Source of the DNA: Escherichia coli
GTDB taxonomy: Bacteria; Pseudomonadota; Gammaproteobacteria; Enterobacterales; Enterobacteriaceae
Strand: one strand, 5' to 3'
Assembly (NCBI RefSeq): GCF_003334255.1
Contig: NZ_QOWU01000112.1
Length of the DNA: 3,982 nucleotides
Shown piece by piece: positions 711-1,455 of the stretch. A model generated the notes under the pieces. That model searched no databases and was not told where the DNA came from. It saw only the letters and a program-made list of their open reading frames with translations. The first letter of the stretch is position 1. Every line of letters begins with the position of its first letter. The translations under genes and the position numbers were made by a program.

Positions 711-941
711 ATGCTTAAAACTGACGCTCTTTTGTATTTCGGTTCAAAAACAAAACTTGCACAAGCAGCAGGTATTCGTTTGGCTTCGCTTTATAGCTGG
801 AAAGGGGATTTAGTTCCCGAAGGTCGCGCGATGCGTCTACAGGAGGCATCTGGCGGGGAGCTTCAGTATGATCCCAAAGTTTATGATGAATATCGTAAGA
901 CGAAGCGGGCGGGGCGGTTGAACAATGAAAATCACTCCTGA
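711..941 (+). CDS. dicC: DicC / Cro-like (YdaS-family) small HTH regulator, 76 aa
   Basis: 76-aa ORF MLKTDALLYFGSKTKLAQAAGIRLASLYSWKGDLVPEGRAMRLQEASGGELQYDPKVY... Divergent from dicA. The K-L-A-Q-A-A-G-I...S-L-Y-S-W pattern is typical of Cro/YdaS-type HTH. Length matches Qin DicC. Overlaps the next gene by 17 nt. Confidence 0.8.
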   Translation: MLKTDALLYFGSKTKLAQAAGIRLASLYSWKGDLVPEGRAMRLQEASGGELQYDPKVYDEYRKTKRAGRLNNENHS

Positions 942-1455
942 ACAGGCTCGTGAGGCTCGTGAGGCTCTGGATGCCTGGATATGTCGACCAGGAATGACAC
1001 AGGAGCAGGCGACGATATTAATCACTGAAGCATTCTGGGCTTTGAAAGAGCGCCCGAACATCGATGTTCAGCGTGTCACATATGAAGGTGGCGCGATTGA
1101 TCAGCGAGCGCTTGGCGTTAATCGAGTGAAGATATTTGAACGCTGGAAGGCTATCGACACCAGGGATAAGCGTGAAAAGTTCACGGCGCTAGTGCCTGCA
1201 ATTATGGAGGCTATCCGGATTAATGATTTCAGGTTGTATCGTGAAATTACTGACGGAAAAAGCATCACGTGCATGATCGCCGGGTTAAACAAAGAATATG
1301 GCGATGTGGTGGAGTCCGGACTGCTTTTTGCTGATCCTGCCGTAGTGGATCGTGAAACTGACGAACTTATAGAAAAAGCAATTGCTTTCAAACTTGCGTA
1401 TCGACAGCAATACCAACAAAAAGCTGGATGGAATTATGAGCCTTCTTTTTGCTGA
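925..1455 (+). CDS. YdaT-like protein (CII-position regulator of Rac/Qin-type prophages), 176 aa
   Basis: ORF begins MKITPEQAREAREALDAW and contains KIFERWKAIDTRDKREKFTALVPAIMEAI, which resembles the conserved core I recall for the YdaT family. It sits directly after the Cro-like gene, as ydaT follows ydaS in Rac. Not verified by search. Confidence 0.65.
   Translation: MKITPEQAREAREALDAWICRPGMTQEQATILITEAFWALKERPNIDVQRVTYEGGAIDQRALGVNRVKIFERWKAIDTRDKREKFTALVPAIMEAIRINDFRLYREITDGKSITCMIAGLNKEYGDVVESGLLFADPAVVDRETDELIEKAIAFKLAYRQQYQQKAGWNYEPSFC

What the first reader, a model, noticed from the sequence alone, without database searches (positions are those of the whole stretch)
711..1455. Out-of-frame gene overlaps link dicC, the YdaT-like gene and the initiator
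The YdaT-like ATG (925) lies 17 nt inside dicC, and the preferred initiator ATG (1436) lies 20 nt inside the YdaT-like gene. This points to tight co-transcription and possibly coupled translation of the early-right operon. It also makes the initiator start call dependent on choosing between ATG 1436 and the upstream TTG 1382.
Basis: seen in the sequence. Interest (0 to 1): 0.2.

Follow-up and report, generated by a model that had tools for sequence, protein, structure and literature searches.

The report
Ordinary gene overlaps, prophage early operon
Three neighbouring early genes of a Qin-like E. coli prophage do overlap by 17 and 20 bases, but this is ordinary phage gene packing that public annotation already records; the one extra point is that the first overlap probably also carries the binding site of the CII-like regulator encoded there.

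Summary
dicC (711-941), the YdaT-like/CII-like gene (925-1455) and the O-like initiator (1436-2401) overlap out of frame by 17 and 20 nt. RefSeq and GenBank annotate the same starts, and K-12 dicC/ydfX has the same 17-nt overlap.

Both start calls hold. The YdaT-like frame is closed by TGA 919-921, so ATG 925 is its first possible start, and the family N-terminus (M-x-I) aligns there. For the initiator, orthologues at 68% identity start at the same MSLL with a stop 9 nt upstream. TTG 1382 is lost in one relative, and variation upstream of 1436 fits only the YdaT frame.

The overlaps are long "phase 1" overlaps, the commoner long class. Each upstream gene simply runs on to the first stop inside the next gene. 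The tails are poorly constrained: the DicC tail lies beyond the Cro fold, YdaT-like residues 168-176 are predicted unstructured, and the YdaT tail changes where another replication module is joined at 1416-1419.

Co-transcription is plausible. Tight termination-reinitiation coupling is not expected at -17/-20, and no structure hides either ribosome site.

New lead: 918-935 (TTGAAC-AATGAA-AATCAC) matches the footprinted Rac YdaT-box in the same register around the start codon, as in six distant family loci (one shifted by 3 nt).

The parts
220..627 (-). dicA, the CI-like repressor, divergent from dicC
   Evidence: NF007257, 234 bits against a cut-off of 101. Annotated as dicA in RefSeq relatives.
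650..678 (+). Promoter-like site upstream of dicC (TTGACT-17-TATCCT), the likely pR analogue for the early-right operon
   Evidence: Consensus scan only. It is the only + strand promoter-like site before position 3003.
711..941 (+). dicC (Cro analogue), 76 aa
   Evidence: NF007282, 159.5 bits against a cut-off of 130. Residues 1-59 align to P22 Cro 1rzs (E 6.8e-6), so residues 60-76 form a tail beyond the Cro fold.
911..917 (+). Shine-Dalgarno-like GGGGCGG, 7 nt before ATG 925
   Evidence: Anti-SD duplex of -7.2 kcal/mol. Three related loci carry GGGGAGG here.
918..935 (.). YdaT-box-like inverted repeat TTGAAC-AATGAA-AATCAC around the YdaT-like start codon. Its TGA (919-921) closes the YdaT frame upstream of ATG 925.
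   Evidence: 9 of 12 half-site matches to TTGATT-N6-AATCAA, in the same register as the footprinted Rac box (ATG at box positions 8-10). Five other distant lineages score 8-11 of 12 in register, and L098 keeps the same DNA spacing with its ATG 3 nt downstream. Background frequency of 9 or more matches is about 8e-4 per position. The 18-mer is invariant in 14 haplotypes from 83 loci, with variable sites at -10, -9, +11 and +12. Binding was not tested.
925..941 (+). Overlap 1, 17 nt: dicC codons 72-76 plus stop, and YdaT-like codons 1-6
   Evidence: There are two variable sites. One is synonymous in the YdaT-like gene and changes the last DicC residue (S/P/H). The other changes both proteins.
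925..1455 (+). YdaT-like / CII-like regulator gene, 176 aa (173 aa in relatives)
   Evidence: phrog_163 at 4.5e-38, PF06254 at 6.7e-5, fold hits 8bt1 and 3c4r at probability 1.00. The N-terminus M-x-I is shared with distant homologues.
1382..1435 (+). Rejected N-terminal extension of the initiator (TTG 1382, TTG 1394)
   Evidence: No SD (0.1 and -0.1 kcal/mol). TTG 1382 is TCG in L003. Of 13 variants here, 11 are non-synonymous in this frame, against 7 synonymous and 6 non-synonymous in the YdaT frame. Orthologues have a stop 9 nt before the conserved ATG.
1416..1419 (.). Mosaic joint between the immunity/YdaT block and the replication module, at YdaT-like codons 164-165
   Evidence: Homology with O157-type loci L004 and L005 ends here. 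After the joint those loci carry a different YdaT tail, a different SD and a different initiator, with a 29-nt overlap.
1426..1432 (+). Weak Shine-Dalgarno-like GGATGGA before ATG 1436, inside YdaT-like codons G168-W169-N170
   Evidence: Anti-SD duplex of -5.5 kcal/mol. Invariant in all haplotypes.
1436..1455 (+). Overlap 2, 20 nt: YdaT-like codons 171-176 plus stop, and initiator codons 1-7
   Evidence: Both variable sites are synonymous third positions in the initiator and change the YdaT tail (P/S, S/P). YdaT-like residues 168-176 have pLDDT below 50.
1436..2401 (+). O-like replication initiator, 321 aa
   Evidence: phrog_391 at 1.3e-91; phrog_6493 aligns from the Met of ATG 1436. Most homologues are 321-330 aa and start MSLL.
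1764..1895 (.). Five iterons at 23-24 bp spacing inside the initiator gene (probable origin)
   Evidence: Repeat family D1.

Best explanation
These are two real but ordinary long co-directional overlaps in the early-right operon of an intact Qin-type (DicA/DicC immunity) lambdoid prophage. The downstream starts, ATG 925 and ATG 1436, are the true ones. Each upstream gene has no stop of its own before the next start, so it reads on in a different frame until the first stop (5 codons for dicC, 6 for the YdaT-like gene). This adds a short, loosely constrained tail to the upstream protein. At junction 2 the tail, the ribosome site and the stop all belong to the exchangeable replication module, which is joined at 1416-1419. 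Swapping the module therefore changes both the tail and the overlap length (20 to 29 nt). The three genes are most likely transcribed together from the promoter upstream of dicC. Each downstream gene is most likely started mainly at its own Shine-Dalgarno site, with at most partial help or interference from ribosomes finishing the upstream gene. What is shown: the coordinates, the frames, the homology of the starts, the pattern of sequence variation, and the mosaic joint. What is inferred: co-transcription, independent initiation, and weak coupling.
For: Coordinates and frames. Same starts in RefSeq, GenBank and K-12. ATG 925: the frame opens at 922 just after TGA 919-921; phrog_163 aligns from residue 6; distant homologues align from residue 2-3 and share M-x-I. 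ATG 1436: orthologues at 68-69% identity in other contexts start MSLL with TAG 9 nt upstream and a GAGGG SD. TTG 1382 is not conserved, and variation upstream of 1436 fits only the YdaT frame. Loosely constrained tails: 3 of the 4 variable sites in the overlaps are synonymous in the downstream gene and change the upstream protein. DicC residues 60-76 lie beyond the P22 Cro alignment. YdaT-like residues 168-176 have pLDDT below 50, after the last helix at 138-167. In the solved CP-933P YdaT the last 17 residues are disordered (PMC9986795). Mosaic joint with an alternative 29-nt overlap. Spacing drifts across the family, from +22 to -20 nt at Cro-like/YdaT and from +46 to -29 nt at YdaT/next gene. 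Phase-1 long overlaps are the commoner long class. Other 20-26-nt overlaps occur in the same phage genome. No special RNA structure and no Rfam match.
Against: No expression, ribosome-profiling or proteomic data for this prophage were available, so every start is inferred from comparison. The 17-nt overlap is invariant in all 83 copies, which could reflect selection rather than linkage, although those copies are only 82-98% identical in protein. The initiator SD is weak (GGATGGA, -5.5 kcal/mol), which would leave room for some dependence on upstream translation. The variable-site counts inside the overlaps are small (4 sites).
Confidence: 0.72

Rival explanations
1. The overlaps are selected to enforce tight translational coupling by termination-reinitiation. 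DicC, the YdaT-like protein and the initiator would then be made in fixed ratios by the same ribosomes.
For: The start codons lie 14-17 nt upstream of the upstream stop, within reach of a terminating ribosome. The initiator SD is weak. The 17-nt overlap is invariant in 83 copies. Across the family the Cro-like/YdaT junction is always tight, from +22 to -20 nt.
Against: Spacings of -8 to +10 nt are the ones predicted to allow efficient reinitiation (PMC10666635). Coupling fell with increasing overlap and was absent at -25 nt in the cited systematic test (PMC12548453). The spacing is not conserved across the family or across replication modules (-20 against -29). No structure hides either ribosome site. 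The three proteins are not known to be subunits of one complex.
Confidence: 0.12
2. One or both overlaps are artefacts of start-codon calls. The true starts would lie downstream (ATG 994, ATG 1487), removing the overlaps, or the initiator would start at TTG 1382, giving a 74-nt overlap.
For: All public starts are computational predictions. At least one deposited protein (P0010) uses the TTG 1382 start. ATG 994 and ATG 1487 are in frame.
Against: Residues before Met24 of the YdaT-like protein align with the family profile and with distant homologues from residue 2-6. Initiator residues 1-17 are conserved in 68%-identity orthologues whose ATG is forced by a stop 9 nt upstream. Variation in the overlap falls on synonymous third positions of the initiator frame. 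TTG 1382 and 1394 and ATG 1487 have no SD (0.1, -0.1 and 1.1 kcal/mol), and ATG 994 has only -3.1. The putative extension shows 11 of 13 non-synonymous variants.
Confidence: 0.05
3. This reading is compatible with the best explanation. At junction 1 the layout is fixed mainly by a DNA element. The YdaT-box must straddle the YdaT-like start codon, and the end of dicC simply reads through it. The segment 918-941 would then serve three purposes: the DicC tail, the YdaT-like start, and the regulator's own binding site for a leftward repressor-establishment promoter.
For: In Rac, YdaT footprints ATGATT-CATGAA-AATCAA with the ydaT ATG in the spacer, and this site activates the leftward promoter PracR4 up to 29-fold (PMC11879457). 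The window has TTGAAC-AATGAA-AATCAC in the same register. Five other distant lineages (30-36% protein identity, with unrelated upstream gene tails) score 8-11 of 12 in register. The nearest distant relative, L098, keeps TGAAC-N7-ATCAC with the same DNA spacing even though its ATG has moved 3 nt. The 18-mer is invariant while the flanking sites vary. The R-W pair of the recognition helix is conserved as R73-W74.
Against: The match is only 9 of 12, and the two half-sites are weakly symmetrical (3 of 6). Counting matches with up to 3 mismatches across the window gives no excess over chance (3 found, 3.5 expected). The right half-site lies in conserved N-terminal codons, so part of the similarity could reflect protein constraint. 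His56 of Rac YdaT, one of the two residues (with Arg57) changed in the non-binding double mutant, is Glu72 here. No leftward promoter-like site scoring 8 of 12 or better was found in 628-1000. Binding was not tested.
Confidence: 0.45

Closest known systems
dicC-ydfX of the cryptic prophage Qin in E. coli K-12
   Same: Same genes and the same 17-nt overlap in the reference annotation (dicC 1647620-1647850, ydfX 1647346-1647636). DNA is 97% identical up to window position about 1213. dicC is described as operonic with ydfX (PMC11430063), and ydfX as the Qin homologue of ydaT (PMC11879457).
   Different: K-12 has lost everything beyond window position about 1213. Its ydfX is a 96-aa remnant, and the initiator and the second overlap are absent. 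The window holds the intact version, as in ATCC 8739, W, IAI1 and phage PhiR42_1.
racR-ydaS-ydaT-ydaU of prophage Rac, and the CP-933P equivalent
   Same: Same order of functions: repressor, Cro analogue, CII analogue (YdaT family), replication genes. ydaS-ydaT form one transcript. A YdaT-box straddles the ydaT start codon in the same register as the 918-935 sequence here.
   Different: The Rac genes do not overlap (gaps of +22 and +12 nt). By pairwise BLAST the proteins share only a 29-residue stretch at 41% identity. The box here matches 9 of 12 positions rather than 11 of 12, and its binding is untested.
cro-cII-O of phage lambda
   Same: Same functional order in the early-right operon, with the origin iterons inside the initiator gene. 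In lambda too, the CII site of pRE lies at the start of the cII gene (my own knowledge).
   Different: Lambda has nutR and the terminator tR1 between cro and cII, and a gap holding the oop promoter region between cII and O (my own knowledge). Here the genes overlap, which leaves no room for such elements between the coding sequences. No oop-like RNA or convincing terminator was found.
Long overlaps in lambdoid late genes (Nu1/A 26 nt, portal/Nu3 20 nt)
   Same: Co-directional out-of-frame overlaps of 20-26 nt in the same phage genome. Each overlap length leaves a remainder of 2 when divided by 3, the same phase class as here.
   Different: They join structural genes whose products interact. 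Nothing comparable is known for DicC, YdaT-like protein and the initiator.
Termination-reinitiation coupled gene pairs (ATGA, TGATG; -4 and -1 nt)
   Same: Co-directional overlap within one operon. The window itself has one such pair, DUF977/methyltransferase, with GTGA at 2861-2864.
   Different: The -17 and -20 spacings lie outside the -8 to +10 nt range predicted to allow efficient reinitiation.

Membership tests
Long 'phase 1' co-directional gene overlap (descriptive class of Huber et al. 2023) | Overlap length in the series 8, 11, 14, 17, 20... nt between two genes on the same strand | tested here: met
   17 and 20 nt, with each downstream gene in the +1 frame. Class defined in PMC10666635.
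Long 'phase 1' co-directional gene overlap (descriptive class of Huber et al. 2023) | Both reading frames are real genes with correctly placed starts | tested here: met
   Family matches for all three genes. Starts are supported by orthologues and by the pattern of variation. No experimental mapping exists.
Translationally coupled pair by termination-reinitiation | Stop and start within about -8 to +10 nt | tested here: not met
   Spacings are -17 and -20 nt. Range taken from PMC10666635. Coupling was lost by -25 nt in the test cited in PMC12548453.
Translationally coupled pair by termination-reinitiation | Downstream translation depends on upstream translation | not testable with these tools
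   Needs reporter fusions carrying premature stop codons.
Translational coupling by unmasking of a structured ribosome site | A stable RNA structure hiding the downstream SD or start | tested here: not met
   Folds of 880-960 and 1395-1475 give z = -0.69 and +1.07 against shuffles.
YdaT family (CII functional analogue) | Sequence match to PF06254 or the family profile | tested here: met
   PF06254 at E 6.7e-5, residues 62-134. phrog_163 'CII-like transcriptional activator' at 4.5e-38. PGAP names it 'toxin YdaT family protein'.
YdaT family (CII functional analogue) | Fold: N-terminal HTH (POU-like) domain followed by a long C-terminal helix | tested here: met
   AlphaFold model with mean pLDDT 77.7. 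Top PDB hits are 8bt1 (YdaT) and 3c4r, both at probability 1.00 with E 9e-3 and 2.3e-2 and TM 0.57 and 0.52 on the target. The next hit has E above 1. The E-values are moderate.
YdaT family (CII functional analogue) | Recognition-helix residues needed for DNA binding (H56 and R57; W58 for the fold, in Rac YdaT) | tested here: inconclusive
   R73 and W74 are invariant in the alignments, but the His position is Glu72 here (IFERW against IYHRW).
YdaT family (CII functional analogue) | Position between the Cro-like gene and the replication genes, divergent from the repressor | tested here: met
   Same layout in distant loci.
YdaT family (CII functional analogue) | YdaT-box (TTGATT-N6-AATCAA) at the ydaT start, bound by the protein and activating a leftward promoter | tested here: inconclusive
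   A sequence matching 9 of 12 positions is present in register at 918-935 and conserved. Binding and promoter activation cannot be tested here, and no leftward promoter-like site was found.
DicC / P22-type Cro | NCBIfam DicC model above its curated cut-off | tested here: met
   NF007282 at 159.5 bits against 130. P22 Cro 1rzs at E 6.8e-6 over residues 1-59.
Lambda O-like replication initiator | Family match, plus iterons (the origin) inside its own gene | tested here: met
   phrog_391 at 1.3e-91. Five iterons at 1764-1895 with 23-24 bp spacing.

The most novel reading that the evidence does not exclude
The 17-nt dicC/YdaT-like overlap may be part of a 24-nt segment (918-941) that serves three purposes. 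It would encode the tail of the Cro analogue and the start of the CII analogue, and it would hold that CII analogue's own binding site (a Qin-type YdaT-box). A YdaT-like tetramer sitting on its own start codon could then switch on a leftward repressor-establishment promoter. It might also hinder rightward transcription into its own gene and the replication initiator, which has no separate promoter because of the second overlap. That would tie the lysogeny decision directly to replication-gene expression. In lambda those steps are kept apart by nutR/tR1 and intergenic spacers.
Probability: 0.3. Interest if true: 0.35.

Novelty: already known. Interest (0 to 1): 0.12.

Why it matters
As stated, the finding matters little. 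The overlaps are in the reference annotation, and they are typical of compact phage operons. Three things are useful. First, the start of the initiator can be fixed at ATG 1436 and that of the YdaT-like gene at ATG 925 on comparative grounds. Second, the overlaps are best read as run-on tails rather than coupling devices, and the second one marks where replication modules are exchanged. Third, the first overlap coincides with a probable YdaT-box. If confirmed, that would extend the experimentally defined Rac/CP-933P regulatory site to the widespread Qin-type prophages, which are present in about half of complete E. coli genomes.

Tried and rejected
1. RNA structure hiding the ribosome sites: folds of 880-960 and 1395-1475 are no better than shuffled sequence.

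2. Known RNA families, including any antisense RNA like lambda oop at the CII/O junction: no Rfam match at E up to 1 on either strand. The only - strand terminator-like site nearby (1511-1495) is weak and lies inside the initiator gene.

3. TTG 1382 or TTG 1394 as the initiator start: rejected.

4. Downstream starts ATG 994 and ATG 1487: rejected on N-terminal conservation.

5. Sequence search of the YdaT-like protein against PDB: no hit at E up to 0.01. The relation to YdaT 8bt1 appeared only in the fold search.

6. Counting YdaT-box-like sites in the window: no excess over chance with 3 mismatches allowed. The core TGAW-N8-WTCA occurs twice against 0.6 expected. The case for the box rests on its register and cross-family conservation, not on counts.

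7. A leftward sigma-70 promoter in 628-1000: none at 8 of 12 or better.

8. A search for distant YdaT loci using the family alignment failed, because no stretch was conserved enough. Distant loci were instead reached one at a time.

9. Many 'low-identity' homologues proved to be deletion chimeras rather than divergent relatives. The synonymous/non-synonymous count for initiator positions +20 to +199 looked unreliable (cause not checked) and was not used.

Full report
**What the window is.** The 3,982-base window is the early region of an intact Qin-type lambdoid prophage of E. coli. Positions 600-1600 are 99% identical to ATCC 8739, W, IAI1 and many other strains (the difference is a 9-nt gap), and about half of complete E. 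coli genomes hold a related stretch. Phage PhiR42_1 matches positions 700-1600 at 99.0%. The genes are:
- dicA, 220-627 on the minus strand
- dicC, 711-941
- a YdaT-like/CII-like gene, 925-1455
- an O-like initiator, 1436-2401
- a DUF977/Ren-like gene, 2442-2864
- a truncated methyltransferase, 2861-3217

**Checking the observation.** The coordinates are exact. The dicC stop is TGA 939-941 and the YdaT-like ATG is at 925, giving a 17-nt overlap. The YdaT-like stop is TGA 1453-1455 and the initiator ATG is at 1436, giving a 20-nt overlap. The three genes use three different frames. All 83 YdaT-like gene copies in the loci I collected have the 17-nt overlap. Of these, 76 show the 20-nt overlap, 2 show 29 nt with another initiator type, and in 5 no downstream initiator start was detected.

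**Start of the YdaT-like gene.** Its frame is closed by TGA 919-921, so ATG 925 is the first start codon available, and the next is ATG 994. An SD-like GGGGCGG lies 7 nt upstream (-7.2 kcal/mol), and three relatives have GGGGAGG there. The PHROG profile aligns from residue 6. An exhaustive search found distant homologues (30-45% identity) that align from residue 2-3 and begin M-x-I, for example MKIKYEH, MEIKHEQ, MNINLDS and Rac's MKIKHEH. ATG 925 is therefore secure on comparative grounds.

**Start of the initiator.**
- The frame opens at 1373 and offers TTG 1382, TTG 1394 and ATG 1436. Only ATG 1436 has an SD-like sequence (GGATGGA, -5.5 kcal/mol; the two TTGs give about 0).
- Most of the homologues listed are 321-330 residues long and begin MSLL.
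- In Citrobacter, Salmonella and E. coli, orthologues at 68-69% identity sit behind unrelated genes. There an in-frame TAG lies 9 nt before the same ATG, with a GAGGG SD, so the start is forced.
- In locus L003 (88.8% DNA identity) TTG 1382 has become TCG.
- Among 19 haplotypes, the 13 variants between -54 and -1 are mostly third positions of the YdaT frame (7 synonymous, 6 not). In the putative extension frame 11 of the 13 are non-synonymous.
- TTG 1382 is rejected. ATG 1487 is rejected too, because residues 1-17 are conserved in the orthologues.

**What the overlaps are.** Inside the two overlaps there are four variable sites. Three are synonymous third positions of the downstream gene that change the upstream protein's tail: DicC S76 to P or H, and YdaT-like P173 to S and S174 to P. 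DicC aligns to P22 Cro only over residues 1-59, so the overlapped codons 72-76 lie in a tail beyond the fold. An AlphaFold model of the YdaT-like protein (mean pLDDT 77.7) ends its last helix at residue 167. Residues 168-176 fall below pLDDT 50. Those are exactly the codons that carry the initiator's SD and first 20 nt. In the solved CP-933P YdaT the last 17 residues are likewise disordered (PMC9986795).

Homology with O157-type prophages stops at 1416-1419. Beyond that joint those loci carry a different YdaT tail, a GGGGGG-type SD, a DnaT-like initiator and a 29-nt overlap. The stop codon of the YdaT-like gene therefore belongs to whichever replication module is attached.

Across distant members of the family the spacing drifts. 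At the Cro-like/YdaT junction it is +22, +10, +10, -4, -14, -17 and -20 nt. At the YdaT/next-gene junction it is +46, +23, +14, +13, +12, -14, -20 and -29 nt. This is the picture expected when an upstream stop is lost or never present and the frame runs on to the next stop. Overlaps in this phase cannot shrink to the favoured -4 or -1 nt forms, which is the published reason why long 'phase 1' overlaps persist (PMC10666635). The same phage genome has 26-nt and 20-nt overlaps among its head genes.

**How it most likely works.** One promoter-like site (650-678) precedes dicC. No + strand promoter-like site follows before position 3003, and the only + strand terminator-like matches in that stretch are two weak ones inside coding sequence. 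In K-12, dicC and ydfX are described as one operon. Co-transcription is therefore the reasonable inference.

Tight coupling is not. Neither junction has more RNA structure than shuffled controls. I conclude that each gene is started mainly at its own ribosome site, with at most partial positive or negative influence from ribosomes finishing the upstream gene. This step is inferred, not shown.

In Rac, YdaT footprints ATGATT-CATGAA-AATCAA. The ydaT ATG sits in the spacer, and the site activates the leftward promoter PracR4, the pRE equivalent (PMC11879457). I confirmed the position of that sequence in the K-12 genome. The window has TTGAAC-AATGAA-AATCAC at 918-935, with ATG 925 at the same box position.

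Five other distant lineages carry 8-11 of 12 matches in the same register, although their upstream gene tails are unrelated. The nearest distant relative (L098) keeps TGAAC-N7-ATCAC at the same DNA spacing even though its start codon has moved by 3 nt. The background frequency of 9 or more matches is about 8e-4 per position. In the 83 close relatives the 18-mer is invariant while sites at -10, -9, +11 and +12 vary. The box's TGA is also the in-frame stop that closes the YdaT frame upstream of its ATG.

There are reasons for caution:
- The match is only 9 of 12, with poor two-fold symmetry.
- The right half lies in conserved codons.
- His56 of Rac YdaT is Glu here.
- No leftward promoter-like site was found.
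- Site counts in the window are not above chance.

I rate a functional Qin-type YdaT-box at about 0.45.

**Family membership.** The YdaT-like label is supported by PF06254 (weak), by phrog_163, by the top fold hits 8bt1 and 3c4r, by the conserved R-W pair and by gene position. Pairwise BLAST similarity to Rac YdaT is confined to 29 residues.

**Verdict.** The overlaps are ordinary and already annotated. The probable YdaT-box inside the first overlap is a modest new lead of a known kind.

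Noticed in passing
window 946-963: A 9-bp tandem duplication (GCTCGTGAG twice) adds Ala-Arg-Glu to the YdaT-like protein, making it 176 aa instead of 173. None of the 1,813 complete E. coli genomes that hold this stretch has the duplication (best match 89.5%, which equals a 9-nt gap), and neither does any of the 82 other loci examined.
   Followed up: yes
window 1321-1334 and 1442-1455: A direct repeat CT(G/T)CTTTTTGCTGA encodes LLFA in both the YdaT-like gene and the initiator, in their different frames. A 121-nt deletion between the two copies produces a natural in-frame YdaT-initiator fusion protein (P0001, 448 aa, seen on 56 contigs). Other deletion chimeras of these genes are common in public data.
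   Followed up: partly
window 1764-1895; also 739-749: Five iterons at 23-24 bp spacing lie inside the initiator gene and are the probable origin. The iteron core TCGGTTCAAAA also occurs once, exactly, inside dicC at 739-749. By my rough estimate about 0.4 such chance matches would be expected, so this may mean nothing.
   Followed up: no
window ~812, ~1209-1213, 1416-1419: Three recombination or deletion joints. (a) The N-terminal half of dicC (before about 812) differs between immunity types, while its C-terminal half travels with the YdaT-like gene. (b) The K-12 Qin deletion ends at about 1213, and other strains (L006) carry the reciprocal remnant starting at 1209-1212. (c) The replication module is joined at 1416-1419.
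   Followed up: partly
window 2402-2441: No helicase-loader gene follows the initiator here. There is a 40-nt gap and then DUF977, with a strong SD (AAGGGGGA) and a GTG start at 2442. Related prophages have a DnaC-like ATPase (L003) or a lambda P-like gene (L014) at this position.
   Followed up: no
window 2861-3217 and 3480-3940: The methyltransferase ORF is truncated (118 aa against a 229-position family profile). It overlaps DUF977 by the classic 4-nt GTGA. In ATCC 8739 the downstream small ORFs are annotated as pseudogenes with internal stops or frameshifts.
   Followed up: no
window 3377-3394: An inverted repeat CTGAAT-AATTAA-ATTCAG lies in an AT-rich non-coding stretch. It is the only other match in the window to the YdaT-box core TGAW-N8-WTCA (2 matches found, 0.6 expected by chance).
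   Followed up: no
window 1375-1388: A perfect 14-bp palindrome AAAGCAATTGCTTT lies inside the YdaT-like gene, and its centre contains the rejected TTG 1382. On the minus strand it is followed by a T-rich run, but its stem is too AT-rich to count as a terminator in the scan.
   Followed up: no
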